In this document: in pieces, positions 33,381 through 46,337 of the stretch
How positions within the stretch are numbered: position 1 is the first letter of the stretch
Layout of the letters: every line of letters begins with the position of its first letter
Origin: Escherichia coli
Lineage (GTDB): Bacteria; Pseudomonadota; Gammaproteobacteria; Enterobacterales; Enterobacteriaceae
Length of the DNA stretch: 64,000 nt
Reading direction: 5' to 3' (one strand)
NCBI RefSeq assembly: GCF_003018235.1
Contig: NZ_CP027437.1
The notes under the pieces: generated by a model
The model's database searches: none
The model's input: only the letters and a program-made list of their open reading frames with translations
Told to the model about the DNA's origin: nothing
Made by a program: the position numbers and the translations under genes

Positions 33381-34073
33381 CTAGTGATACCCACGCGCGG
33401 TCATAAAATCCGTAATCGCTTTTTCTGCATCAACCAGTACCTTTTCCAGTGGCTGATTGGCGTCGATATCAACCAGTTGTGCACCACCAAAGGTTAACTG
33501 TGGCGTTATGGCTATCTTTCTTGCCAGCGATTCCCTTTTGTGGTCAGGCTTACGCGCGCAGGCCACGTCTAGATCGACATTGAGTTTGATGACCAGATCA
33601 GGTTTATGGCTCGCCATCCAGTGAAACGCTTTACGTTCCTGGCTTGCCAGCCATGAGACAAAACGACCACCTTCAATGTTAGGTGGGAACACTGTACCAT
33701 CGTAAGCGCCAGGAATTTGGTCCTGAGGATAACGGTCGGTTAGAACAATTAACCCGCGACGACGACAGGCAAGCATATGACGAAAGCGCAGTAAGCGACG
33801 GGCGACAAACGCTGTAATTACCAGCGCCGGAACAGGGCCAGGCAATTTTTTTGCTGTTTTCACCTGATTTCGTTCAATTGTTTTATGTAAGGATTTTCCC
33901 ATCAACGGTAATTTTGTCACTGCACGACCGACATTTCCGGCCTGTTTTCCTAAATGAACTCTTTCGGCTGCACCATATTTTTCGACAACGGTAATGAGAT
34001 GTTCACACACCGTTGACTTGCCTGAACCATCGCTACCAATAACGGCAATTAATGGAGGTGTTATTGACTGCAT
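33381..34073 (-). CDS. yghT: P-loop NTPase, kinase-like; paralogue of YghS and YghR
   Basis: 230-aa ORF; Walker [10 protein letters not shown]; shared C-terminal motif RKPDH with YghS/YghR. Confidence 0.8.
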
Positions 34074-34246
34074 GAATATATCCTTTAATTTAAATATCCA
34101 TTAAAAATATTTATTTGGTTAATATGTTTTTATGAAAGCGTAATTCAGGTCAATGTCACAATTAACCATTGTCACAATAAGGTTGAACGGATATTCTGAG
34201 CACGGACCACGTAATATTCAATACATTATTTGCTGCCGGGTTTTTC

Positions 34247-34960
34247 GTGAATCAACGTAATATGTCAATAATTAATTCCACGCCAGTGCGTGTTATTGCC
34301 ATTGTAGGATGTGATGGTTCAGGTAAATCGACCCTCACGGCAAGCCTGGTAAATGAACTGGCAGCAAGAATGCCAACAGAACACATTTATCTCGGGCAAT
34401 CGTCCGGGCGAATTGGCGAATGGATTTCACAGCTCCCTGTTATTGGCGCACCTTTTGGGCGTTATTTGCGAAGTAAAGCGGCACATGTGCACGAAAAGCC
34501 CTCAGCACCGCCTGGCAATATTACTGCGCTGGTTATCTATCTGCTTTCCTGCTGGCGGGCGTACAAGTTTCGCAAAATGTTGTGTAAAAGCCAGCAAGGC
34601 TATCTGCTCATCACCGACCGCTACCCGCAGGTTGAAGTGCCGGGTTTTCGCTTTGATGGCCCGCAATTGGCAAAAACCACGGGCGGTAACGGTTGGATAA
34701 AAATGTTAAGGCAGCGCGAGCTGAAGCTGTACCAATGGATGGCGTCTTATTTGCCCGTATTGTTGATTCGTCTTGGCATTGATGAACAAACCGCGTTTGC
34801 GCGTAAACCTGACCACCAACTGGCAGCGTTACAGGAAAAAATCGCCGTTACGCCGCAACTGACATTCAATGGCGCAAAGATCCTTGAACTGGATGGTCGG
34901 CAACCAGCCGATGAAATTATGCAAGCGTCACTACGCGCAATTCACGCCGCGCTTTCCTGA
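34247..34960 (+). CDS. yghS: P-loop NTPase, kinase-like; paralogue of YghT and YghR
   Basis: 237-aa ORF; Walker A GCDGSGKST. Confidence 0.8.
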   Translation: MNQRNMSIINSTPVRVIAIVGCDGSGKSTLTASLVNELAARMPTEHIYLGQSSGRIGEWISQLPVIGAPFGRYLRSKAAHVHEKPSAPPGNITALVIYLLSCWRAYKFRKMLCKSQQGYLLITDRYPQVEVPGFRFDGPQLAKTTGGNGWIKMLRQRELKLYQWMASYLPVLLIRLGIDEQTAFARKPDHQLAALQEKIAVTPQLTFNGAKILELDGRQPADEIMQASLRAIHAALS

Positions 34961-34991
34961 TCACCAAAATGGATAGGGGATGATTTAACGA

Positions 34992-35748
34992 ATGGATGCA
35001 CTACAAACACAAACTGTTAAGAGTACAACCGCGCCGCAGCCCAACTACATTCCGGGGCTGATTGCGGTGGTCGGGTGTGATGGCACCGGTAAATCCACGC
35101 TGACCACCGACCTGGTGAAATCGCTGCAACAACACTGGCAAACCGAGCGGCGCTATCTGGGGCTGCTCTCCGGCGAAGACGGCGACAAAATCAAACGATT
35201 GCCGTTGGTTGGCGTCTGGCTGGAACGGCGGCTGGCGGCCAAATCCTCGAAAACCCAAAGCATGAAAACCAAATTTCCAGCGCTATGGGCGGCGGTGATT
35301 ATGTACTGCTTCTCGCTGCGAAGAATGGCGAATCTACGCAAGGTTCAGCGACTGGCGCAAAGTGGCGTTCTGGTGGTCAGCGATCGCTTCCCGCAGGCTG
35401 AAATTTCGGGCTTTTATTATGACGGACCGGGGATCGGCGTCGAACGTGCGACCGGGAAAATCAGCATGTTTCTGGCGCAGCGCGAACGGCGTTTATACCA
35501 ACAAATGGCGCTACCGTCCTGAATTAATCATTCGCCTGGGCATTGATATTGATACTGCCATCTCCCGCAAGCCTGACCATGACTATGCCGAGCTGCAGGA
35601 CAAAATCGGCGTCATGTCGACGATTGGCTATAACGGCACAAAAATTCTTGAGATTGATTCCAGAGCGCCTTACAGCGAGGTGCTGGAACAGGCACAGAAG
35701 GCGGTTTCTCTGGTTGCCATCGTTTCTGACCGCCGAAGTTTAACTTAA
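34992..35748 (+). pseudogene. yghR: P-loop NTPase YghR interrupted by a frameshift near 35511 (two ORF pieces, 34992-35522 and frame +1 to 35748)
   Basis: Alignment to YghS/YghT (…LYQWMASYLP… / …FHWMASHKP…) shows the frame changing after QQMA; the repaired product would be 252 aa. Confidence 0.7.
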
Positions 35749-35793
35749 GGCAGGCGGGATACTTTTTACTATCAACGATAAGGTCAGGCTGAA

Positions 35794-37143
35794 TTGGCGG
35801 GTTTTAACATCAAACATTGGTTTGCAGATGGCGCGTTTCGCACCATTATTCGCAATAGCGCCTGGTTAGGCTCCAGTAATGTCGTGAGCGCCTTGCTGGG
35901 TCTGTTGGCGCTCTCGTGTGCCGGTAAAGGGATGACGCCCGCCATGTTTGGCGTACTGGTGATTGTGCAATCGTACGCCAAGTCGATCAGCGATTTTATT
36001 AAGTTTCAGACATGGCAGCTGGTGGTTCAGTACGGAACGCCAGCCTTGACCAACAATAATCCGCAGCAATTTCGCAATGTTGTCTCATTTTCCTTCTCGC
36101 TGGATATCGTCAGCGGCGCGGTGGCGATTGTCGGCGGCATTGCCTTACTGCCATTCCTTTCCCATTCATTAGGTCTGGATGACCAAAGCTTTTGGCTGGC
36201 GGCGCTCTATTGCACGCTCATTCCTTCAATGGCTTCCTCCACGCCGACCGGCATTCTGCGTGCGGTAGATCGCTTTGATTTGATTGCTGTACAGCAGGCG
36301 ACGAAACCTTTTCTGCGCGCAGCGGGGAGCGTCGTAGCCTGGTATTTTGACTTTGGTTTTGCGGGTTTTGTTATTGCCTGGTACGTGTCGAATCTGGTTG
36401 GCGGCACCATGTACTGGTGGTTTGCCGCGCGCGAATTACGCCGCAGAAATATCCATAACACCTTCAAATTGAATCTGTTTGAGTCTGCCCGACACATTAA
36501 AGGCGCGTGGAGTTTTGTCTGGTCAACCAACATTGCCCACTCCATCTGGTCGGCACGTAACTCGTGCAGCACAGTGCTGGTGGGGATCGTGTTAGGACCC
36601 GCTGCCGCCGGGTTATTTAAAATCGCCATGACATTCTTCGACGCCGCCGGAACGCCAGCGGGTTTACTGGGTAAAAGTTTTTACCCAGAGGTGATGCGTT
36701 TAGATCCGCGCACCACCAGACCGTGGTTGTTAGGCGTGAAGTCCGGTTTACTGGCGGGCGGAATCGGTATTCTGGTGGCGCTCGCGGTGTTGATCGTCGG
36801 CAAGCCGCTCATTTCGCTGGTGTTTGGCGTTAAGTATCTCGAAGCGTATGACCTGATTCAGGTGATGCTGGGCGCAATTGTGATTTCGATGCTGGGCTTC
36901 CCACAGGAGTCATTGCTATTGATGGCGGGAAAACAGCGCGCTTTTCTCGTGGCGCAAACCATCGCCTCAATCGGCTACATCGTATTGCTGTTCATGTTCT
37001 GTCATCTGTTTGGCGTGCTGGGGGCTGCATTTGCTTACTTCGCTGGGCAATGTCTGGATGTGGTGTTCTCGCTAATTCCAACCTTAAAGGCATTTTTTCA
37101 GCGCCATTCCTTGCTTTATAACGCAGCCGGAGAGAAATCCTGA
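35794..37143 (+). CDS. yghQ: Multi-pass membrane protein of the MOP/Wzx-like flippase superfamily; start codon uncertain
   Basis: 449-aa ORF (maximal), highly hydrophobic; K-12 annotation is shorter, to my recollection. Confidence 0.7.
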   Translation: MAGFNIKHWFADGAFRTIIRNSAWLGSSNVVSALLGLLALSCAGKGMTPAMFGVLVIVQSYAKSISDFIKFQTWQLVVQYGTPALTNNNPQQFRNVVSFSFSLDIVSGAVAIVGGIALLPFLSHSLGLDDQSFWLAALYCTLIPSMASSTPTGILRAVDRFDLIAVQQATKPFLRAAGSVVAWYFDFGFAGFVIAWYVSNLVGGTMYWWFAARELRRRNIHNTFKLNLFESARHIKGAWSFVWSTNIAHSIWSARNSCSTVLVGIVLGPAAAGLFKIAMTFFDAAGTPAGLLGKSFYPEVMRLDPRTTRPWLLGVKSGLLAGGIGILVALAVLIVGKPLISLVFGVKYLEAYDLIQVMLGAIVISMLGFPQESLLLMAGKQRAFLVAQTIASIGYIVLLFMFCHLFGVLGAAFAYFAGQCLDVVFSLIPTLKAFFQRHSLLYNAAGEKS

Positions 37144-37967
37144 TGATGAGAAAATATTTCCCGCTTGAGGCTAGCGAGCGTCTATTTGTTGCGATTGAAG
37201 AAGATGATGTCGTTGATGCACAGGTCAGTTTGCCGCCGACTATCGCACTAAGTTGTACCACCGAAATCATCCATGATAATTACGCGTTATGCCTGAAATT
37301 CTGGCTGGATGGTGTTAATCGTCAGGAGCTACTGCGTTTAATCCGCAAACAGGCGAAAGGCGATGAGCTGACGACAGACGAGCGCAAAAAGTATAAATAC
37401 ATGCGAGCGCGCTACAAGCATCTGCGCTTTGCGCAACGGCTGTATTTAAAGAAGCATCAGGCCGGATTTTTATTCGGCAAAACGACCGTTTTTTTGGGGC
37501 GTTTTCAGGACGGCTTTCGTAACGGTAAGAAAAATATTGTGTCGTATTACGGCAACCTGTTACGGGTTTATTTAAGCTCTCCGGTCTGGTCGTTGGTGAA
37601 CTATTCATTACGCCATAGCCAGTTAGAAAGCGTAAGCGGTTTTATTGCCTATCGGCAAAAGCAAATGCATACCCTGAAAGAGATAATTGCCAAACCGCGA
37701 CTAACTGGCAGGGAATTTCATGATGTGCGAAAAATCATCAGCCAGCAGGTTTCTTATTACGACACCCTAAGATCGCTTGATCCTGAAAATAAAGAGGCGT
37801 TACAGATTTCCCGCTTCCTCGCCGCCATTAATGGCCTGATGGGGGATAAACACGACGACATGGTGGCGGATGATATGGAAAACCGCCAGTCGTATGATGC
37901 ACCGGTGGCGCTGGATAGCGATATTCGCCAGCGCTTAGAGCTGCTGATTTCGCGTTTTCCGCTATAA
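37143..37967 (+). CDS. Hypothetical protein, 274 aa, no recognisable domain
   Basis: Start overlaps the yghQ stop (TGATG); charged, non-membrane. Confidence 0.55.
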   Translation: MMRKYFPLEASERLFVAIEEDDVVDAQVSLPPTIALSCTTEIIHDNYALCLKFWLDGVNRQELLRLIRKQAKGDELTTDERKKYKYMRARYKHLRFAQRLYLKKHQAGFLFGKTTVFLGRFQDGFRNGKKNIVSYYGNLLRVYLSSPVWSLVNYSLRHSQLESVSGFIAYRQKQMHTLKEIIAKPRLTGREFHDVRKIISQQVSYYDTLRSLDPENKEALQISRFLAAINGLMGDKHDDMVADDMENRQSYDAPVALDSDIRQRLELLISRFPL

Positions 37968-37975
37968 CCGGAGCA

Positions 37976-38539
37976 ATGATGTCATCTCGTTTGATTATTG
38001 CGCTGATTATCATGCTCTTAGCCCCGGGTGTGCAGGCACACAATTTCGTCACTGGCAAAACGGTTACCCCTGTTTATATCCAGGAAGGCGGCGAGCTGCT
38101 TCTGAATAGCGACGACGAAATTCACTACCAAAAGTGGAACAGCACACAGCTGGCGGGAAAAGTTCGCATTATTCAGTATATCGCCGGGCGTAAGTCGGCG
38201 AAGAAAAAGAACTCACTGTTAATTAAAGCGGTTGAAGCGGCAAACTTTCCGCAGGATCGTTTTCAGCCCACCACCATTGTGAACACCGATGATGCCATTT
38301 TTGGTACTGGCTATTTTGTCGTTGGCAAAATCGAAAAAAATAAACGCCGCTATCCGTGGGCGCAATTCGTTATTGACGGCAATGGACAGGGACGCGTTGC
38401 CTGGCGGTTGCCGGAGCAGAGTTCAACCATTCTGGTGCTGAATAAAGCCGGGCAAATTCAGTGGGCAAAGGACGGCAGCCTGACGCCGGAAGAGGTAGAA
38501 CATGTCATTGCGCTGGCGCAGAAACTGATCAATGAATAA
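37976..38539 (+). CDS. YtfJ-family periplasmic protein
   Basis: 187-aa ORF; signal peptide MMSSRLIIALIIMLLAPGVQA; conserved TTIVNTDDAI and WAKDGSLTPEEV blocks recalled from E. coli YtfJ. Confidence 0.55.
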   Translation: MMSSRLIIALIIMLLAPGVQAHNFVTGKTVTPVYIQEGGELLLNSDDEIHYQKWNSTQLAGKVRIIQYIAGRKSAKKKNSLLIKAVEAANFPQDRFQPTTIVNTDDAIFGTGYFVVGKIEKNKRRYPWAQFVIDGNGQGRVAWRLPEQSSTILVLNKAGQIQWAKDGSLTPEEVEHVIALAQKLINE

Positions 38540-38569
38540 AAAATTCAAAGGATTGAGGGCGTTAGTGAG

Positions 38570-39640
38570 ATGAAGCTGGTTGAACACTACATCATGCGTG
38601 GTACGCGCCGTCTGGTGCTGATTATCGTCGGTTTTCTGATCTTTATTTTCGCCAGCTACTCCGCACAGCGTTATCTGACCGAAGCGGCAAATGGGACATT
38701 AGCTCTTGATGTTGTGCTGGATATTGTTTTCTACAAGGTGCTGATTGCACTGGAGATGTTGTTACCTGTTGGACTGTATGTGTCAGTTGGCGTGACGCTA
38801 GGGCAGATGTATACCGACTCGGAAATTACCGCTATTTCTGCGGCGGGGGGCAGTCCGGGACGCTTGTACAAAGCCGTTCTTTATCTGGCGATACCGCTAA
38901 GTATTTTTGTCACCCTTCTGTCGATGTATGGTCGTCCGTGGGCTTATGCGCAGATTTATCAACTGGAGCAACAGTCACAGTCGGAGCTGGATGTTCGCCA
39001 GTTGCGGGCAAAGAAATTTAACACTAACGATAACGGACGAATGATCCTTTCGCAGACGGTTGATCAGGATAATAATCGCCTGACTGACGCGCTGATTTAT
39101 ACTTCTACTGCCAATCGAACCCGCATTTTCCGCGCCCGTTCGGTTGATGTGGTTGACCCATCACCTGAGAAACCGACCGTTATGTTGCATAACGGGACCG
39201 CCTATCTTCTCGATCATCAGGGGCGTGACGACAACGAACAGATCTACCGTAATCTGCAATTACATCTGAATCCGCTGGATCAAAGCCCTAACGTCAAACG
39301 CAAAGCAAAATCGGTCACGGAGCTGGCGCGCTCCGCCTTTCCTGCCGATCATGCCGAACTGCAATGGCGACAAAGCCGTGGCCTGACAGCATTGTTGATG
39401 GCGCTGCTGGCCATTTCATTAAGTCGGGTAAAACCGCGGCAAGGGCGATTTTCAACGTTATTGCCACTGACGTTGCTGTTTATTGCCATTTTTTATGGCG
39501 GCGACGTCTGCCGTACGCTGGTGGCTAACGGCGCGATTCCCCTCATTCCTGGTTTGTGGTTAGTACCCGGACTCATGCTAATGGGCCTGCTGATGCTGGT
39601 CGCACGCGACTTCTCATTGCTGCAGAAATTTTCCCGATGA
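38570..39640 (+). CDS. LptF-like permease (YjgP/YjgQ family)
   Basis: 356-aa ORF; N-terminal TM helices, periplasmic beta-jellyroll-like insert, C-terminal TM helices. Confidence 0.65.
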   Translation: MKLVEHYIMRGTRRLVLIIVGFLIFIFASYSAQRYLTEAANGTLALDVVLDIVFYKVLIALEMLLPVGLYVSVGVTLGQMYTDSEITAISAAGGSPGRLYKAVLYLAIPLSIFVTLLSMYGRPWAYAQIYQLEQQSQSELDVRQLRAKKFNTNDNGRMILSQTVDQDNNRLTDALIYTSTANRTRIFRARSVDVVDPSPEKPTVMLHNGTAYLLDHQGRDDNEQIYRNLQLHLNPLDQSPNVKRKAKSVTELARSAFPADHAELQWRQSRGLTALLMALLAISLSRVKPRQGRFSTLLPLTLLFIAIFYGGDVCRTLVANGAIPLIPGLWLVPGLMLMGLLMLVARDFSLLQKFSR

Positions 39641-40716
39641 ATGTTTTCAGTCGCTATTTAATCCGTCATCTCTTTCTCGGTTTTGCCGCCGCCGCAGGGC
39701 TATTGCTGCCGCTTTTTACCACCTTCAACCTGATTAACGAACTGGATGATGTCAGCCCGGGCGGTTATCGCTGGACTCAGGCGGTGCTGGTGGTGCTGAT
39801 GACCTTACCGCGTACACTGGTCGAACTTTCGCCGTTTATCGCATTATTGGGAGGGATTGTTGGCCTGGGGCAGTTATCGAAAAACAGTGAGCTTACCGCC
39901 ATTCGCAGCACGGGGTTTTCTATCTTCCGTATTGCACTAGTGGCGCTGGTTGCCGGGATATTGTGGACTGTTTCGTTAGGCGCGATAGATGAGTGGGTGG
40001 CGTCGCCATTGCAGCAACAGGCGCTGCAAATCAAATCGACTGCCACCGCGTTGGGGGAGGACGATGACATTACCGGCAATATGCTTTGGGCCAGGCGCGG
40101 TAATGAATTTGTGACGGTGAAATCGCTGAACGAGCAGGGCCAGCCTGTGGGCGTGGAGATATTTCATTATCGCGACGATCTCTCGCTCGAATCCTACATT
40201 TTTGCACGCAGTGCCTCCATTGAAGACGACAAAACATGGATCCTGCATGGTGTGAATCATAAAAAATGGTTGAATGGCAAGGAAACGCTGGAAACATCAG
40301 ATAATCTTGCCTGGCAATCGGCCTTCACCAGTATGAATCTTGAAGAGTTATCGATGCCGGGAAATACTTTTTCTGTCCGTCAACTTAATCATTACATCCA
40401 TTATTTGCAGGAAACTGGGCAACCCAGCAGCGAATACCGCCTTGCACTGTGGGAAAAACTGGGACAACCCATCCTGACCCTGGCGATGATTTTGCTGGCT
40501 GTGCCGTTTACCTTTAGTGCCCCGCGTTCGCCTGGGATGGGTAGCCGTCTCGCTGTAGGCGTCATCGTGGGCTTACTTACCTGGATCAGCTATCAAATCA
40601 TGGTCAATCTGGGATTGCTATTTGCGTTGAGCGCACCTGTTACCGCGCTCGGTTTACCGGTAGCGTTTGTGCTGGTGGCGTTGAGCCTGGTGTATTGGTA
40701 TGACAGACAACATTAA
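39637..40716 (+). CDS. LptG-like permease (YjgP/YjgQ family), paired with the upstream gene
   Basis: 359 aa from ATG at 39637 (MNVFSRYLIRHLF), overlapping the upstream stop (ATGA). Confidence 0.65.
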   Translation: MNVFSRYLIRHLFLGFAAAAGLLLPLFTTFNLINELDDVSPGGYRWTQAVLVVLMTLPRTLVELSPFIALLGGIVGLGQLSKNSELTAIRSTGFSIFRIALVALVAGILWTVSLGAIDEWVASPLQQQALQIKSTATALGEDDDITGNMLWARRGNEFVTVKSLNEQGQPVGVEIFHYRDDLSLESYIFARSASIEDDKTWILHGVNHKKWLNGKETLETSDNLAWQSAFTSMNLEELSMPGNTFSVRQLNHYIHYLQETGQPSSEYRLALWEKLGQPILTLAMILLAVPFTFSAPRSPGMGSRLAVGVIVGLLTWISYQIMVNLGLLFALSAPVTALGLPVAFVLVALSLVYWYDRQH

Positions 40717-40746
40717 ACCCGCCGTGGCGCAACACCACAGCGGGCT
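40717..40746. terminator. Hairpin between the convergent permease and lipid-synthesis operons
   Basis: cccgccgtgg-N7-ccacagcggg, 10-bp stem with one mismatch. Confidence 0.4.
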
Positions 40747-40750
40747 CACA

Positions 40751-41923
40751 TTACTGCTTCAGAGTAGCGAACGCTTGAATGATGGCATCAATTTGCTCAC
40801 GACTGTGGGCAGCGTTTACGCTACAGCGCAGCAGCGTGATGCCTGCAGGCGCGGCAGGTGGCAGGATAAGATTCACATAAACGCCCAGCGAAATAAGCTC
40901 GCGCCAGATGCGTAAACCTTCCTCTTTCGAACCGATTATTACTGGCACTACCGGGCTAATATGTGAACTTAACTCATAATCCAGTTTTTGCAGACCGTCA
41001 TACAGATGGTTGGCATTATCCATCAGCTTTTGCCGCAACTCTGGTTGTGAGACAATGGTTCTTAACGACGAGCGCACGGTCGCAATGCAGGACGGAGAAG
41101 GAGAGGCGGTAAAAATATACGGGCGGCTGCCGTAGCGCAACACTTCCATCGCTTCCGAACCGACAGCAAAACCGCCAATCGAGGCCAGGCTTTTACTGAA
41201 GGTACCAACGATAATATCCACATCATCTTCAACGCCAACGGCTTCAGCCAGTCCGCGCCCCGTTGCGCCTAACACGCCAAACGAATGCGCTTCATCGACA
41301 ATCAAATAACCACCGAGACGACGTTTGATATCAACAATTTCCGCCAGCGGCGCAACGTCACCGAGCATACTGTAGATGCCTTCAACGATGATAATCGCCT
41401 CTTTTGCCCGTTCACCGAGGCGAACCATGCGCCGTTCCAGATCTTTAGCATCGTTATGGCGGAAACGAATAATTTCCGCGCCACCGAGAGAACAGGCGTC
41501 ATAAATACTGGCGTGGCTGTCGGCATCCAGTAACACCACGGCGTTATGGTCGGCAAGTGCGCTGATGACGCCTAAATTAGCGGTATAACCGGTTGAAAAA
41601 ACGATAGCGGTAGGGCGATTAAAAAACTCGGCGATCTCTTTCTCTAACGCCAGATGCGGCGCATAACTGCCGTTTGCCATACGAGAACCGGTGGTGCCGG
41701 TGCCTTGGGCCGCTAACGCTGCCTGACCTTCGGCGATGGCATCATGATTAAAGGTTAAACCGAGATAATTATTGGTCCCGGCCAGAATCACTTTTTTATT
41801 GCCGATCCGACCTTCGGTGGCGGAATACACTTCATCAATACAGGTGCCAAACGGTGTTAACCCGTTGTCACTAAATTGCAGTCGCTCGCCAGCAAGGCGC
41901 GCATATTTATCGTATAGCCCCAT
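40751..41923 (-). CDS. PLP-dependent alpha-oxoamine synthase, serine palmitoyltransferase-like
   Basis: 390-aa ORF; PLP-lysine motif GTFSKSLASIGG (SPT-like rather than BioF GTFGKA or Kbl GTLGKA) and DADSHAS histidine motif. Confidence 0.75.
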   Translation of the reverse strand: MGLYDKYARLAGERLQFSDNGLTPFGTCIDEVYSATEGRIGNKKVILAGTNNYLGLTFNHDAIAEGQAALAAQGTGTTGSRMANGSYAPHLALEKEIAEFFNRPTAIVFSTGYTANLGVISALADHNAVVLLDADSHASIYDACSLGGAEIIRFRHNDAKDLERRMVRLGERAKEAIIIVEGIYSMLGDVAPLAEIVDIKRRLGGYLIVDEAHSFGVLGATGRGLAEAVGVEDDVDIIVGTFSKSLASIGGFAVGSEAMEVLRYGSRPYIFTASPSPSCIATVRSSLRTIVSQPELRQKLMDNANHLYDGLQKLDYELSSHISPVVPVIIGSKEEGLRIWRELISLGVYVNLILPPAAPAGITLLRCSVNAAHSREQIDAIIQAFATLKQ

Positions 41924-42171
41924 TATTTATTCTCCAGCCATGGAAGTAGTGTTTCCATTAATTGCGCAGGGGTTTTGACATCCAGCAGAATATTAATAGG
42001 AATGGAAATATCGAATCTGTCTTCCAGCATCATTAAGAGATCCATCACTTTGATCGACTCCAGGCCAAGATCGTTGACGAGATCGCTGTCGGGCTTAATT
42101 TCCACACCGTTTTCGACCAAATCCTGTAAACAGGAAAGGATGTAATCCATTACTATTTCACGATTTACCAT
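41923..42171 (-). CDS. Dedicated acyl carrier protein
   Basis: 82-aa acidic ORF with phosphopantetheine-site-like DLGLESIKVMDL; stop overlaps the downstream start. Confidence 0.7.
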   Translation of the reverse strand: MVNREIVMDYILSCLQDLVENGVEIKPDSDLVNDLGLESIKVMDLLMMLEDRFDISIPINILLDVKTPAQLMETLLPWLENK

Positions 42172-42202
42172 AGAAACGTTAACACACCTTTAAACAAGAC
42201 AA

Positions 42203-43117
42203 TCAAAATAGCCCGTTGCGTAATGCGTGTTCCAGGCTAATCCCGGGAAACCAATTAATATCTTCAGAAATACGGTTATTACTTGCCGACCAGTCGGCAT
42301 GAGTTAATTCACGGATTTTCGAACGAGTCAGCATCGGTTCTTTACCCGCCAGACGGCTCAACGCGGTACTGATATCCGCAAGGCAGGTGAGTAGCGGCAG
42401 AGGAATACCGACCATCCGCACGGAACCGCAACGGGCGTCGGCGGCAAGCTGTCTTACGCGTTGCCAGTCATAGCCTCCGGCGACGCCATCGCATAATTCA
42501 TAGGTTTGCGTCTGTACAGTTTCGGCGCTTAACCACTGACCCACTGCTTGCGCAAAATCGGTGACGTGAAGAAAAGAGAGCTGTGTCTCTGGCGTGCCAA
42601 GTCGTGGCAGCAGGCCGCGCAGCATCCAGTCAAACAGCGGTTTTAACTCTTTATCGCCGGGACCATACACGGCTGTCGGGCGAAAAACGCCCAGCGTAAT
42701 TTCATCAGCCATTGCAGTCAGCCGTTGTTCGGCGACGTGTTTGGAATTTGCGTACCAGGAGAGTTCGGGATGGCGCGCCGCCAGCGAAGAGATAAACAGA
42801 AAACGTTGGCAAAAGCCGCTCTCTTTTGCCGCTTGCATCAGGCGCAGGCTGCCGTCAACGTTACAGCGGGTAAAAATCTCTTCTTTGTGTCCGCGCACTT
42901 GTCCGGCGCAATGGACCACCGCGCTGGCTCCGGCAACCAGTTCGCTAAGCGAATGTGTATCTTCCAGCGAACCGCGCACCCAGATGAGATTATCATTGAC
43001 GTGAGCGCGGGCAGTACGCGTCAATGCGCGAACGTGAAAGCCGCGGGCGAGCAGGTTATCGATAATATATTTACCGATAAACCCGGTAGCGCCCGTCACC
43101 GCGACAGTTTGATTCAT
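42203..43117 (-). CDS. NAD(P)-dependent epimerase/dehydratase-fold reductase (extended SDR)
   Basis: 304-aa ORF; Rossmann motif GATGFIG; catalytic YANSK (YxxxK). Confidence 0.7.
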   Translation of the reverse strand: MNQTVAVTGATGFIGKYIIDNLLARGFHVRALTRTARAHVNDNLIWVRGSLEDTHSLSELVAGASAVVHCAGQVRGHKEEIFTRCNVDGSLRLMQAAKESGFCQRFLFISSLAARHPELSWYANSKHVAEQRLTAMADEITLGVFRPTAVYGPGDKELKPLFDWMLRGLLPRLGTPETQLSFLHVTDFAQAVGQWLSAETVQTQTYELCDGVAGGYDWQRVRQLAADARCGSVRMVGIPLPLLTCLADISTALSRLAGKEPMLTRSKIRELTHADWSASNNRISEDINWFPGISLEHALRNGLF

Positions 43118-44850
43118 GCCAGGGATTCCTGCACATGAAGGCTTGCAGCATAACGTTTTTTCGCTTCCGCACGGGCAGGCTTGCCGGAGGACGTTCGGGG
43201 AATACTGTGGGGCGGCAACAGATCGATAGCCGCTGTTACGCCAAATTCGCTTTGGATCCGTGCTACCAGTGCGTGGATAAGCTGCCCACGACGTTCTTCG
43301 TCGCTGATCCTACACTGGATCTGCAGAATGATTTTTTCCTGGGCGGTAACAAAAGCAATCGCATCGCCAGAATGAATTTCCGGTTCCTGTTCCGCAATAT
43401 ATTCAATATCCTGCGGCCAGATATTACGGCCACGAATAATAATCAGATCTTTAATGCGTCCGGTGACATACAGATAACCGTCCAGCAGATAACCGAGGTC
43501 GCCGGTGTCTAACCAGCCCGTCGCGGCAATCTCGTCTTGTGAAATCTGGTCGCCAAAGTAACCGCTCATCAGGCTAGGGCCGGAGATGCAAATATGGCCT
43601 ACCACACGTTCCGCGACAGGTATACCTGCTTCATTGCGGATTTCAATGCCATGTTCCGGCAACGCTTTACCGCAGTTGACGAAAGTCGATACGGCGCGTG
43701 TTTCAGCATCCGGCGCGACGGCTTTGCCCTGATATTCGAGGATGTCGCGATCCACTTCGTTAACCACAACCCCGGAAGCTTCATCAGAGAAGCTGACAGC
43801 CAGCGCATTTTCTGCCAGTCCGTAGCACGGCATGAAAGTTTTATCGTCAAAGTTGACCTGACGGAAACATTCAGCGAATTGATGGAGTTGTTCTGCGGAG
43901 ATGGGTTCTGCACCAATACCAGCGACGCGCCAGCAGGAAAGATCCAGTTCAGCGAGATCTTTTTCATTCACGCGGCGCTGGCACAATTCATAGCCAAACG
44001 GCGGCGCAACGGAAACGGTGCCGCGATTTTTACTGATCAATTTAAGCCATTGCAGAGGACGCATGGCAAAATCCTGAGTGCGCAAATAATCTACTGAAAG
44101 CTGCGTGGCGACGGGGGGCAGGAGAAAGCCGACCAGTCCCATATCATGGTAGAAAGGCAGCCAGGAGACGCAGCGGTCGCCAGGGCGTAATTTAATGCCA
44201 TCGTGGCTTATAGCACGTAGATTAGCCATCACTTCGCGATGGGTGATAATGACGCCACGGGGAAAACGGGTGCTGCCGGAGGTGTACTGGAGGTAGGCGA
44301 TATCGTTCGGAACTGGACGCTGGAGCGCAACATCGGCTTCCGGTAATGCCTTAAACCAGGCGTGGCTTAAAACATGTAATTCGGGGTTGTTATGCGTAGC
44401 GGCATTGACCAGTGGCAACCACTCATCACCAGTGATAATGGCTGCGGGCTGGCAACTTGCCAGTAAACCCTGCAGTTTGGCGCTCCAGGAATCCCGCTGA
44501 CCGACGCCCATTGGAATCGCCAACGGGACGGCGACTAAGCCGGCATACTGGCAGGAAAAAAAAGCCTCTACGAACCCGCTACTGGTTTCGGCAATCAGCG
44601 CCACGCGATCGCCTTTTTTCAGGTTCAGCGATAACAACCGCTTCGCACCAGCTTCGGCACGCGCTTTTAACGTCTGATATTCCAGTTGATCTTCAAGTTG
44701 GCAACGTCTGTCATAAAAATTCATTCCGGCGCTACTCAGAGCGGCGTAGTCCAAAGCATCAACCAGCGTTGGAAAATCGGCATAGCGCATAGGTAGGGAA
44801 TGCGTAAAGATTTTATTAGACATATACACCACGAAAAAATTGGATATCAA
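43114..44850 (-). CDS. Adenylate-forming acyl-AMP ligase / acyl-ACP synthetase-like enzyme; start uncertain
   Basis: 578-aa ORF; AMP-binding motif YTSGSTRFPRG; 4-nt overlap with the downstream reductase gene. Confidence 0.7.
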   Translation of the reverse strand: MISNFFVVYMSNKIFTHSLPMRYADFPTLVDALDYAALSSAGMNFYDRRCQLEDQLEYQTLKARAEAGAKRLLSLNLKKGDRVALIAETSSGFVEAFFSCQYAGLVAVPLAIPMGVGQRDSWSAKLQGLLASCQPAAIITGDEWLPLVNAATHNNPELHVLSHAWFKALPEADVALQRPVPNDIAYLQYTSGSTRFPRGVIITHREVMANLRAISHDGIKLRPGDRCVSWLPFYHDMGLVGFLLPPVATQLSVDYLRTQDFAMRPLQWLKLISKNRGTVSVAPPFGYELCQRRVNEKDLAELDLSCWRVAGIGAEPISAEQLHQFAECFRQVNFDDKTFMPCYGLAENALAVSFSDEASGVVVNEVDRDILEYQGKAVAPDAETRAVSTFVNCGKALPEHGIEIRNEAGIPVAERVVGHICISGPSLMSGYFGDQISQDEIAATGWLDTGDLGYLLDGYLYVTGRIKDLIIIRGRNIWPQDIEYIAEQEPEIHSGDAIAFVTAQEKIILQIQCRISDEERRGQLIHALVARIQSEFGVTAAIDLLPPHSIPRTSSGKPARAEAKKRYAASLHVQESLA

Positions 44851-45194
44851 AAATAAAATGACAATAATGCGGTGGATTATATAGGCATAAAAGATAAATG
44901 AGATAGTATTTTCATCAGTGTGAAAATGAACATTGATTTAAATAATGAGTTTGAGTTTTTTTGTTTTTATTGTGAATGATATTTAATTTATGAATGTATT
45001 AAGAAGAAGCCTTGTCCGGTCGCCTTAAATCGACAAAAGGCATTGTGGCGCTTCTGTGTAGTCTCTGACCTTATCGTAATCATTAATAAATGCTATTTAT
45101 TCGTCGTTTGTATTCATTGGGTTGATTATTAAGGTGCCGTTCGTTGCTGTTGCAACCTGTTTGTCACCGTTAATTATTTGTTACCCACAGAACT

Positions 45195-46337
45195 ATGGAA
45201 TGCGATCTGCTGATGATTAAAATTGAAAAAGTAATTAATAAAAATGACCTTAAGGCATTTATCGCTTTTCCGTCATCACTTTATCCCGACGATCCAAACT
45301 GGATACCCCCTTTATTCATTGAACGCAACGAGCATTTGTCTGCGAAAAATCCGGGGACGGACCATATCATCTGGCAGGCGTGGGTGGCAAAAAAAGCCGG
45401 GCAGATAGTTGGGCGAATTACCGCGCAAATCGATACCTTGCACCGTGAGCGTTACGGTGAAGATACCGGTCATTTCGGCATGATTGACGCCATTGATGAT
45501 CCGCAGGTTTTTGCCGCGTTGTTTGGCGCAGCGGAAGCGTGGTTGAAGTCACAAGGAGCAAGTAAGATCAGCGGGCCTTTCAGCCTGAATATCAATCAGG
45601 AAAGCGGATTACTGATTGAAGGTTTCGATACACCACCCTGTGCGATGATGCCGCACGGTAAACCGTGGTATGCCGCGCATATTGAACAATTGGGTTATCA
45701 CAAAGGCATTGATTTACTGGCGTGGTGGATGCAGCGAACCGATCTCACTTTCTCTCCGGCGCTAAAAAAACTGATGGATCAGGTGCGTAAGAAGGTGACC
45801 ATTCGCTGCATCAATCGCCAGCGGTTTGCCGAAGAGATGCAGATCCTGCGTGAGATTTTCAACTCTGGCTGGCAGCACAACTGGGGATTTGTGCCGTTTA
45901 CCGAACATGAATTCGCGACCATGGGCGATCAACTTAAATATCTGGTGCCGGACGATATGATCTACATCGCTGAGATTGATTCTGCACCCTGCGCGTTTAT
46001 TGTCGGCTTGCCAAACATCAACGAGGCGATTGCCGATCTGAACGGATCGCTCTTTCCCTTCGGCTGGGCAAAATTGCTGTGGCGTTTAAAAGTCAGCGGT
46101 GTGCGAACTGCGCGAGTACCGCTGATGGGCGTGCGGGACGAGTATCAGTTTAGCCGCATCGGCCCGGTGATTGCGCTGTTATTGATTGAAGCCTTACGCG
46201 ATCCGTTTGCCCGCCGGAAGATCGATGCGCTGGAAATGTCATGGATCCTCGAAACCAATACAGGCATGAATAACATGCTGGAACGCATTGGGGCGGAGCC
46301 GTACAAGCGTTACCGATTGTATGAAAAGCAGATTTAA
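45195..46337 (+). CDS. yghO: GNAT-fold acyltransferase-like protein, intact
   Basis: 380-aa ORF, divergent from the lipid operon across an AT-rich region; GNAT assignment is from recollection of this family, not a motif scan. Confidence 0.6.
   Translation: MECDLLMIKIEKVINKNDLKAFIAFPSSLYPDDPNWIPPLFIERNEHLSAKNPGTDHIIWQAWVAKKAGQIVGRITAQIDTLHRERYGEDTGHFGMIDAIDDPQVFAALFGAAEAWLKSQGASKISGPFSLNINQESGLLIEGFDTPPCAMMPHGKPWYAAHIEQLGYHKGIDLLAWWMQRTDLTFSPALKKLMDQVRKKVTIRCINRQRFAEEMQILREIFNSGWQHNWGFVPFTEHEFATMGDQLKYLVPDDMIYIAEIDSAPCAFIVGLPNINEAIADLNGSLFPFGWAKLLWRLKVSGVRTARVPLMGVRDEYQFSRIGPVIALLLIEALRDPFARRKIDALEMSWILETNTGMNNMLERIGAEPYKRYRLYEKQI

What the first reader, a model, noticed from the sequence alone, without database searches (positions are those of the whole stretch)
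34154..34179. Direct repeat TGTCACAAT(T/A) in the yghT-yghS divergent control region
Two copies of tgtcacaat, 16 bp apart, lie in the AT-rich region between the divergently transcribed yghT and yghS. Repeated half-sites at this spacing in a bidirectional promoter suggest a regulator site controlling entry into the yghS-yghR-yghQ transcription unit.
Basis: seen in the sequence. Interest (0 to 1): 0.3.

Follow-up and report, generated by a model that had tools for sequence, protein, structure and literature searches.

The report
Repeat overlapping the yghS promoter
The two TGTCACAAT copies are really there, but cross-genus comparison shows that what is preserved is an ordinary promoter for yghS, whose -35 box lies inside the second copy, plus a short neighbouring block, not a pair of repeated regulator half-sites.

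Summary
TGTCACAAT occurs exactly twice in the window, at 34154-34162 and 34170-34178, 16 bp start to start, in the 173-bp, 30% GC gap between yghT (-) and yghS (+). As a repeat it is statistically weak: the window has 12 such close 9-mer repeats, and 4% of shuffles of this gap produce one.

Orthologous yghT-yghS gaps from Citrobacter, Pseudocitrobacter, Hafnia and Shimwellia do not keep the direct repeat. Copy 1's TGTCA is no better conserved than flanking DNA. ATTGTCAC (the start of copy 2) is invariant in four genera.

ATTGTCAC contains TTGTCA, which lies exactly 17 bp from an invariant TATTCT. That is a sigma-70-type promoter whose spacer sequence varies. The 3' part of copy 1 (CAAT+TA) is also conserved and forms an imperfect dyad, SACAAT-N5-ATTGTC, across the -35 box. 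This may be a site for a dimeric regulator, or a -35 box read on both strands.

No known regulator consensus fits and no publication describes a site here. The motif does not recur in a conserved way at 44851-45194.

Verdict: an unannotated but ordinary promoter region. The half-site reading is only partly supported. Interest is low.

The parts
34154..34162 (+). Copy 1 of TGTCACAAT. The 5' TGTCA is not conserved outside Escherichia; the 3' CAAT plus the following TA is conserved.
   Evidence: Exact match. Per-column conservation is 0.67 for TGTCA and 0.86 for CAAT. E. whittamii has TGCCACAAT.
34170..34178 (+). Copy 2 of TGTCACAAT. TGTCAC is invariant across four genera; the trailing AAT varies (AAC, GAC, ATT).
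   Evidence: Exact match. Conservation is 0.98 for TGTCAC and 0.78 for AAT. Alignments.
34169..34174 (+). Predicted -35 hexamer TTGTCA of the yghS promoter P1. On the - strand the same bases read GTGACA.
   Evidence: Promoter scan gives TTGTCA-17-TATTCT, 9 of 12. The same hexamers and 17-bp spacing occur in Hafnia (2 lineages), Citrobacter (3) and Pseudocitrobacter (4).
34192..34197 (+). Predicted -10 hexamer TATTCT of P1, inside conserved block B (ATATTCTGRGYAC, 34191-34203). The predicted transcription start is about 34203-34205.
   Evidence: block B conservation 0.84. The start position is inferred from hexamer geometry and has not been measured.
34157..34175 (.). Conserved block A, SACAWTTARNYATTGTCAC. 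It contains the imperfect dyad SACAAT-N5-ATTGTC, centred at about 34165, roughly -39 from the predicted P1 start.
   Evidence: Alignments. Six-bp arm complementarity is 5/6 in E. coli and 6/6 in three Citrobacter lineages, and at least 4/6 in 10 of 11 lineages. No SNP fell within 34157-34181 in the seven Escherichia sequences that could be compared base by base.
34212..34222 (+). Conserved block C, TAATAT(T/A)CAAT. It holds the alternative -10 hexamer of candidate promoter P2: TACAAT in most genera, TTCAAT in E. coli. The matching weak -35, TTCTGA, is at 34194-34199.
   Evidence: (conservation 0.85). Serratia and Raoultella have only a promoter at this position, TTGAAC-16-TACAAT or TAAAAT.
34247..34960 (+). 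yghS coding sequence. The GTG start at 34247 is conserved across genera (ATG in Pseudocitrobacter) and is preceded by the conserved TGGRTTTTYC.
33381..34073 (-). yghT coding sequence, divergent from yghS.

Best explanation
The repeat sits on the core and upstream region of the yghS promoter. Copy 2 overlaps the -35 hexamer TTGTCA (34169-34174) of a sigma-70-type promoter, TTGTCA-17 bp-TATTCT. The predicted start is near 34203-34205, about 43 nt before the GTG start of yghS, and the promoter drives yghS-yghR-yghQ and the genes downstream. Copy 1 lies at roughly -50 to -42. Only its 3' CAAT(TA) is under constraint, and this forms with ATTGTC an imperfect dyad, SACAAT-N5-ATTGTC, across the -35 box. 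The perfect 9-mer duplication belongs to the Escherichia lineage and is probably fortuitous, helped by the internal palindrome TGT-C-ACA, rather than being two half-sites. Shown here: the sequence, the hexamer matches and spacing, and the cross-genus invariance. Inferred: promoter activity, the start site, and any protein binding. Published data place yghS among H-NS-associated operons and report 3.1-fold higher transcript on SlyA overproduction, so this promoter is probably largely silent in laboratory K-12.
For: The promoter scan finds TTGTCA-17-TATTCT as the only hit in 33900-34400. Both hexamers and the 17-bp spacing are identical in Escherichia, Hafnia (2 lineages), Citrobacter (3) and Pseudocitrobacter (4), while the spacer and flanks diverge; Shimwellia has TTATCA-16-TATCCT at the same place. 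Conservation by segment is AT+TGTCAC 0.98-1.00, block B 0.84, copy 1 TGTCA 0.67, far flank 0.57. The direct-repeat score falls to background outside Escherichia and H. paralvei. Among the Escherichia sequences compared, SNPs cluster at 34086-34141, with one in copy 1 and none in copy 2. The alternative promoter P2 has lost the essential A at position 2 of its -10 in E. coli (TTCAAT) and is degraded in C. amalonaticus and C. farmeri, where P1 is intact. yghS transcript rises 3.1-fold on SlyA overproduction and is listed with H-NS-bound operons (PMC5797941).
Against: No mapped transcription start was found. Supplement look-ups in two genome-wide start-site papers returned nothing, and the files may be truncated. 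A 9-of-12 hexamer match alone is not significant: 1 found against 1.7 expected in shuffles. Block B is conserved over 13 nt, longer than a -10 hexamer needs. Block C (TACAAT) is the most widely conserved -10-like element, including in Serratia, Raoultella and Mangrovibacter, which lack blocks A and B, so P2 could be the main promoter and blocks A and B could be upstream regulatory sites. Conservation of CAATTA upstream of the -35 box is not explained by a bare promoter.
Confidence: 0.55

Rival explanations
1. Block A is the operator of an unidentified dimeric helix-turn-helix regulator. The protein would bind the dyad SACAAT-N5-ATTGTC, whose half-site centres are 11 bp apart. From about -39 it would repress yghS by occluding the -35 box or activate it as a class-II-type activator, and it might also affect divergent yghT. 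This is compatible with the best explanation and adds a protein to it.
For: Arm complementarity is 5/6 in E. coli, 6/6 in three Citrobacter lineages, and at least 4/6 in 10 of 11 lineages. CAAT+TA upstream of the -35 box is conserved (0.86) although a bare promoter does not need it. The block lies midway between the two divergent genes. The full pattern has a zero-mismatch match only here in the window.
Against: No regulator gene is conserved next to the cluster, and the genes flanking it differ between genera. In the window the dyad pattern with up to 2 mismatches is not enriched: 24 matches against 35.6 expected. No known consensus I tested fits (CRP, FNR, Pho box, lacO, LexA, DnaA). The right arm is invariant, so there is no covariation, and the symmetry could simply be inherited. 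Left-arm conservation could instead reflect an UP-like element or the spacer of a yghT promoter.
Confidence: 0.25
2. One reading: two direct TGTCACAAT half-sites 16 bp apart are bound by one regulator, for example a response regulator or two dimers on opposite DNA faces, which controls the bidirectional promoter.
For: The exact 9-mer occurs twice and only here. Units match 11/12 in register. Escherichia, H. paralvei and Shimwellia keep a (G)YCACAA element 16 bp upstream of the -35 box. Erwinia persicina has AATGCCAC and AATGTCAC 26 bp apart (start to start) upstream of its yghS. A similar TGTCAC/TGTTAC pair lies before yghO.
Against: Copy 1's TGTCA is at background conservation and is replaced by AGCCA, ACGAC or CTGAC in other genera, and by TGCCA in E. 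whittamii. The repeat score is at background in 8 of 11 lineages. The 16-bp period does not match the 10-11-bp phasing of OmpR/PhoB-type sites or the 21-bp phasing of LytTR sites (my own knowledge). The yghO-upstream pair is not conserved. Such 9-mer repeats are common in this window, 12 of them.
Confidence: 0.08
3. The repeat has no sequence-specific role. It is chance similarity in AT-rich, H-NS-coated intergenic DNA. The real yghS promoter is P2 at block C, and blocks A and B are conserved for another reason, for example a yghT promoter read on the other strand.
For: The local chance probability is about 0.04, with 12 comparable repeats in the window. P2's -10 (TACAAT) is the most widely conserved element and the only one present in Serratia, Raoultella and Mangrovibacter. 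On the - strand GTGACA-17-TATTTT or TAGTAT is conserved in position in Hafnia and Citrobacter, ending 72-73 nt before the yghT start. The gap is 30% GC and the operon is H-NS associated.
Against: ATTGTCAC and TATTCT are invariant at fixed spacing in four genera. E. coli's P2 -10 lacks the A at position 2. E. coli has no usable -10 after GTGACA on the - strand (TGACCT).
Confidence: 0.12

Closest known systems
Sigma-70 promoters of H-NS-silenced, SlyA/LeuO-relieved operons in E. coli
   Same: A near-consensus -35 box (TTGTCA) and a weak -10 (TATTCT) with a 17-bp spacer in a 30% GC divergent gap. yghS is listed among H-NS-associated operons and rises 3.1-fold on SlyA overproduction.
   Different: SlyA binding at yghS was not tested in that paper. 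The only TTA-N6-TAA motif in the gap is at 34111-34122, outside the repeat. The promoter itself has never been mapped.
Pho box (PhoB): direct repeats of CTGTCAT at an 11-bp period replacing the -35 box
   Same: Both copies begin with TGTCAC, which resembles the PhoB half-site. The second repeat of the phoA Pho box, as I recall it, is TTGTCAC. The phosphate transporter gene pitB is adjacent to yghT in four genera.
   Different: The period is 16 bp, not 11. The best match to the 18-bp Pho box consensus in the gap has 7 mismatches. The upstream TGTCA is not conserved. The distance to the -10 is a normal 17 bp from TTGTCA, not the Pho-box geometry.
Dyad operators overlapping the -35 box (class II CRP/FNR-type activator sites near -41.5, or repressor operators)
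   Same: An imperfect inverted repeat with half-sites one helical turn apart, centred about -39 and overlapping the -35 hexamer.
   Different: The sequence does not match CRP or FNR; the best matches have 3 mismatches in the 10 specified bases. No cognate protein is known, and the arms are only 5-6 bp.
Bidirectional promoters arising from sequence symmetry (my own knowledge of the published idea that symmetric promoter elements fire in both directions)
   Same: TGTCACA is palindromic, so it reads TTGTCA on the + strand and GTGACA on the - strand. In Hafnia and Citrobacter each reading is followed at 17 bp by a -10-like hexamer.
   Different: Here the shared element would be the -35 box, not the -10. 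E. coli itself lacks the - strand -10. No transcription data are available.

Membership tests
Sigma-70 promoter | -35 hexamer resembling TTGACA | tested here: met
   TTGTCA at 34169-34174, 5 of 6.
Sigma-70 promoter | -10 hexamer resembling TATAAT, with A at position 2 and T at position 6, 16-18 bp downstream | tested here: met
   TATTCT at 34192-34197, 4 of 6, with A2 and T6 present and a 17-bp spacer.
Sigma-70 promoter | Hexamers and spacing conserved in orthologous regions while the spacer sequence drifts | tested here: met
   Identical hexamers and spacing in Escherichia, Hafnia, Citrobacter and Pseudocitrobacter; Shimwellia has TTATCA-16-TATCCT.
Sigma-70 promoter | Experimentally mapped transcription start 6-8 nt downstream of the -10 | not testable with these tools
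   Supplement look-ups in two start-site papers found nothing; a further paper holds no supplements as text and another is not held.
Direct-repeat response-regulator site (OmpR/PhoB type) | Two or more direct half-sites phased at about 10-11 bp | tested here: not met
   The period is 16 bp. The best Pho-box match has 7 mismatches.
Direct-repeat response-regulator site (OmpR/PhoB type) | Both half-sites conserved in orthologous promoters | tested here: not met
   Copy 1 TGTCA conservation is 0.67, equal to the flanks; the repeat score is at background in 8 of 11 lineages.
Dimeric HTH operator (dyad) | Inverted-repeat half-sites about one helical turn apart | tested here: met
   CACAAT-N5-ATTGTC is 5/6 complementary in E. 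coli and GACAAT-N5-ATTGTC is 6/6 in Citrobacter; arm centres are 11 bp apart.
Dimeric HTH operator (dyad) | Symmetry maintained by selection (covariation, or recurrence at co-regulated promoters) | tested here: inconclusive
   The right arm is invariant, so no covariation is possible. There is no recurrence in the window. The look-alike upstream of yghO is not conserved.
Dimeric HTH operator (dyad) | A cognate DNA-binding protein | not testable with these tools
   No regulator gene is conserved beside the cluster, and no literature reports one.
CRP / FNR site | TGTGA-N6-TCACA or TTGAT-N4-ATCAA | tested here: not met
   The best matches have 3 mismatches among the 10 specified bases.
SlyA site | TTA-N6-TAA (PMC5797941) | tested here: not met
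   The only match in the gap is TTATTTGGTTAA at 34111-34122, outside the repeat. It may still matter for the SlyA response of yghS.
Known structured RNA element | Match to an Rfam family, or a stable conserved hairpin | tested here: not met
   No Rfam match approaches its family's gathering score. The hairpin is -3.1 to -4.3 kcal/mol, z-scores -0.8 and -2.1.

The most novel reading that the evidence does not exclude
The conserved 19-bp block SACAWTTARNYATTGTCAC may be a dedicated control element for a cryptic, H-NS-silenced lipid biosynthesis and export cluster. That cluster comprises yghS, yghR, the yghQ flippase, LptF/G paralogues, and a fatty acyl-AMP ligase, acyl carrier protein, serine-palmitoyltransferase-like enzyme and reductase, and it is spread across Enterobacterales. 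The element would be either the operator of an unidentified regulator, or a palindromic -35 box shared by back-to-back yghS and yghT promoters so that RNA polymerase can engage only one direction at a time.
Probability: 0.3. Interest if true: 0.4.

Novelty: new member of a known kind. Interest (0 to 1): 0.2.

Why it matters
It matters modestly. The yghT/yghS control region has no described promoter or regulator. It gates a poorly understood gene cluster that is truncated by IS5 in K-12 but intact in this strain and in many Enterobacterales. Locating the likely promoter and the truly conserved bases gives precise targets for reporter mutagenesis and protein pull-down. It also shows that the eye-catching 9-mer repeat should not be used as the motif for a regulon search. 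The conserved core to use instead is ATTGTCAC with the upstream CAWTTA.

Tried and rejected
1. PhoB / Pho box. I considered it because of the TGTCAC half-sites and the neighbouring pitB. I rejected it on the 16-bp period, 7 mismatches to the 18-mer consensus, and the unconserved upstream copy.

2. CRP, FNR, LexA, lacO and DnaA box. The consensus strings came from my own knowledge. None matched well. Copy 1 with the following T (TGTCACAATT) matches the lac operator right half as I recall it (GCTCACAATT) at 8 of 10 positions, with no inverted partner.

3. SlyA. The only TTA-N6-TAA motif lies outside the repeat, and yghS was not among the EMSA targets.

4. FlhDC. The gSELEX peak at yghS/yghT is weak (intensity 11), and the box sequence the authors list lies inside the yghT coding region near 33911-33955, not at the repeat.

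5. Sigma-E, sigma-54 and sigma-28 readings of blocks A and B. By eye, TCTGA in block B resembles a sigma-E -10, but the -35 position reads CACAAT rather than GAACTT. This was not pursued.

6. RNA element. No Rfam match and only a weak hairpin.

7. Recurrence of the motif. There is no enrichment of ATTGTCAC, ATTGTCACAAT or the dyad in the window. The local enrichment upstream of yghO is not conserved in six other lineages.

8. Adjacent regulator. The genes flanking the cluster differ between genera: an IclR-family gene in Citrobacter only, a LacI-family gene in H. alvei, none elsewhere.

9. Transcription start data. Look-ups in the supplements of PMC3415461 and PMC4782308 found nothing, PMC4161252 holds no supplements as text, and PMC4288677 is not held.

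10. yghT promoter. No convincing sigma-70 match exists in E. coli; the best is TTGACC-18-AAACAT, 8 of 12, and its -35 box is altered in Escherichia sp. E1V33.

Full report
**Observation.** TGTCACAAT occurs exactly twice in the window, at 34154-34162 and 34170-34178 on the + strand. The copies are 16 bp apart start to start. In register they extend to 12-nt units, CAATGTCACAAT and CATTGTCACAAT.

The window is a non-K-12 E. coli; the best match is 99.5% identity to strain M114. RefSeq annotation of matching records places the repeat in the 173-bp gap between yghT (33381-34073, -) and yghS (34247-34960, +). The gap is 30% GC.

As a repeat it is not rare. The window contains 12 exact direct repeats of 9 nt or more at 9-30 bp spacing, against 5.3 +/- 2.2 in shuffles, and 4.3% of shuffles of this gap alone produce one. 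Each copy contains the small palindrome TGT-C-ACA, so the pair is also an inverted repeat with 8 of 9 positions complementary.

The 66-mer around the repeat is identical in 4404 of 4685 E. coli genomes that carry the locus, including K-12. The conversion to K-12 is coordinate = 3168204 minus window coordinate.

**Orthologous regions.** I collected yghT-yghS gaps in three ways.
- A species-level genome scan with YghS.
- A metagenome scan with a promoter pattern designed to exclude Escherichia.
- Whole clusters fetched through homologues of the LptF paralogue.

These cover the following lineages.
- Several Escherichia lineages and E. whittamii.
- Two Hafnia, three or four Citrobacter and four Pseudocitrobacter lineages.
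- Shimwellia and two Erwinia.
- Serratia, Mangrovibacter and Raoultella.

YghS is about 75% identical between genera. The far upstream part of the gap has diverged to a majority-base fraction of 0.57, so there has been enough divergence for footprinting.

In Escherichia, Citrobacter, Pseudocitrobacter and Hafnia the gap has an almost constant length, and four blocks stand out.
- Block A: SACAWTTARNYATTGTCAC, 34157-34175.
- Block B: ATATTCTGRGYAC, 34191-34203.
- Block C: TAATAT(T/A)CAAT, 34212-34222.
- Block D: TGGRTTTTYC followed by the start codon, GTG at 34247. This supports the annotated start.

**What is and is not conserved in the repeat.**

| Segment | Majority-base fraction |
|---|---|
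| AT before copy 2 | 1.00 |
| Copy 2 TGTCAC | 0.98 |
| Copy 2 AAT | 0.78 |
| Copy 1 TGTCA | 0.67 |
| Copy 1 CAAT | 0.86 |
| Flanks upstream of copy 1 | 0.57-0.69 |

The direct-repeat score at offset 16 is 10/12 in E. coli, 9 in E. whittamii and 8 in H. paralvei. It is 1-6 in the other eight lineages, which equals the range at control offsets. Even within Escherichia, E. whittamii has TGCCACAAT in copy 1.

The direct repeat as such is an Escherichia-lineage feature.

**What the conserved bases are.**
- The only sigma-70-like match in 33900-34400 is TTGTCA (34169-34174), 17 bp, TATTCT (34192-34197).
- Alone it is not significant: 1 hit against 1.7 expected in shuffles.
- However, both hexamers and the 17-bp spacing are identical in four genera while the spacer sequence varies. 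Shimwellia has TTATCA-16-TATCCT at the same position.

This is the classic footprint of a promoter, which I call P1. Its predicted start is near 34203-34205, about 43 nt before the yghS GTG. Copy 2 therefore overlaps the -35 box, and copy 1 lies at about -50 to -42.

A second candidate, P2, uses block C as its -10 hexamer (TACAAT) and TTCTGA as a weak -35 box.
- Its -10 is the most widespread element. It is the only one in Serratia and Raoultella, where it is paired with TTGAAC.
- In E. coli it reads TTCAAT, which lacks the A at position 2.
- It is degraded in two Citrobacter lineages that keep P1.

I therefore favour P1 in E. coli but cannot exclude P2 or tandem use of both. No mapped start site could be retrieved.

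**The upstream half of block A.** CAAT+TA (34159-34164) is conserved, although a bare promoter does not need it. Together with ATTGTC it forms the dyad SACAAT-N5-ATTGTC. Complementarity is 5/6 in E. coli and 6/6 in Citrobacter, and at least 4/6 in 10 of 11 lineages. The arm centres are 11 bp apart and the dyad centre is near -39. This could be the site of a dimeric regulator.

Another reading follows from the palindrome in TGTCACA. The invariant bases read GTGACA on the - strand. In both Hafnia and two Citrobacter lineages that hexamer is followed at 17 bp by TATTTT or TAGTAT, ending 72-73 nt before the yghT start. That would make it a shared, back-to-back -35 box for the two divergent genes. 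E. coli itself lacks a usable -10 there (TGACCT), and its yghT promoter remains unresolved.

**Search for a regulator or a regulon.**
- No regulator gene is conserved next to the cluster.
- None of the consensus sequences I tested fits: CRP, FNR, Pho box, lacO, LexA, DnaA (my own knowledge of the strings).
- The motif, its palindromic form and the dyad are not enriched in the window.
A look-alike pair, TTTGTCACC/TTTGTTACC, lies 17 bp apart before yghO. Locally the half-motif is enriched (3 hits against 0.38 expected, P about 0.007, post hoc). The region is not conserved in six other lineages, so I treat this as chance.
- Rfam and folding show no RNA element.

**Literature.** No paper describes a promoter or binding site here.
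- yghS transcript rises 3.1-fold on SlyA overproduction and is listed among H-NS-associated operons, but it was not tested by EMSA (PMC5797941).
- The single TTA-N6-TAA motif in the gap is at 34111-34122, outside the repeat.
- A weak FlhDC gSELEX peak is reported between yghS and yghT, but the box sequence listed lies inside yghT (PMC9962212).

**Verdict.** It is an undescribed but ordinary promoter region. The open question is whether the conserved dyad binds a protein.

Noticed in passing
window 34992-35750: yghR carries a 2-bp deletion near 35512 relative to strains M114 and MC4100. This splits it into ORFs of 176 and 128 aa, so it is probably a pseudogene in this strain.
   Followed up: yes
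window 34247-46337: Downstream of yghS this strain has an intact cluster that K-12 has lost to an IS5-associated deletion. It holds full-length YghQ (449 aa, polysaccharide-synthesis/flippase family), a 274-aa protein with no Pfam match, a YtfJ-family protein and LptF and LptG paralogues. On the opposite strand are a serine-palmitoyltransferase-like aminotransferase, an acyl carrier protein, an NAD-dependent epimerase/reductase and a fatty acyl-AMP ligase, followed by yghO. The same gene set occurs in Citrobacter, Hafnia, Pseudocitrobacter, Shimwellia, Erwinia, Serratia, Mangrovibacter, Raoultella and Sodalis. One literature search found no description of it. It looks like a pathway for making and exporting an amino-lipid.
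   Followed up: partly
window 34078-34088 and 34094-34104: There is a second direct repeat with the same 16-bp period in the same gap, ATATCCTTTAA and ATATCCATTAA, next to the yghT start. On the - strand the proximal copy carries the yghT ribosome-binding site (AAAGGATAT). ATATCCA is partly conserved in Pseudocitrobacter and one Citrobacter-like lineage.
   Followed up: partly
window 45157-45190: Upstream of yghO lies an imperfect palindrome and direct repeat, CTGTTTGTCACCGTTAATTATTTGTTACCCACAG, with TTTGTCACC and TTTGTTACC 17 bp apart. It is not conserved in the yghO-upstream regions of six other lineages.
   Followed up: yes
window 44908-44927: A perfect 7-bp inverted repeat, ATTTTCA-TCAGTG-TGAAAAT, lies in the gap between the fatty acyl-AMP ligase gene and yghO. 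It was not examined further.
   Followed up: no
loci L007, L008, L011, L038, L039, L043 versus L034, L036, L037, L042: pitB (499 aa, PHO4 family) is always immediately beside yghT in Escherichia, Citrobacter, Hafnia and Pseudocitrobacter, although the genes beyond it differ. It is absent from that position in Shimwellia, Erwinia and Serratia. pitB may therefore travel with this cluster in one clade.
   Followed up: partly
L034 16342-17035, L037 16278-16915, L042 16295-17111, L038 16323-16714: The gap between the fatty acyl-AMP ligase gene and yghO in Shimwellia, two Erwinia species and, in part, C. farmeri shares a conserved stretch (…AAAGTGTAT… then …GCATTWASTGGTAAAAATAGCC…). I did not see it in E. 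coli. It is a possible regulatory or small-RNA element in those genera.
   Followed up: no
L021 (250-bp contig in an Alkalicoccobacillus porphyridii assembly): This contig is 99% identical to E. coli yghS at the protein level. It is most likely E. coli contamination of that assembly.
   Followed up: no
window 34111-34122: TTATTTGGTTAA is the only match in the gap to the published SlyA motif TTA-N6-TAA. It might underlie the reported 3.1-fold SlyA response of yghS.
   Followed up: partly
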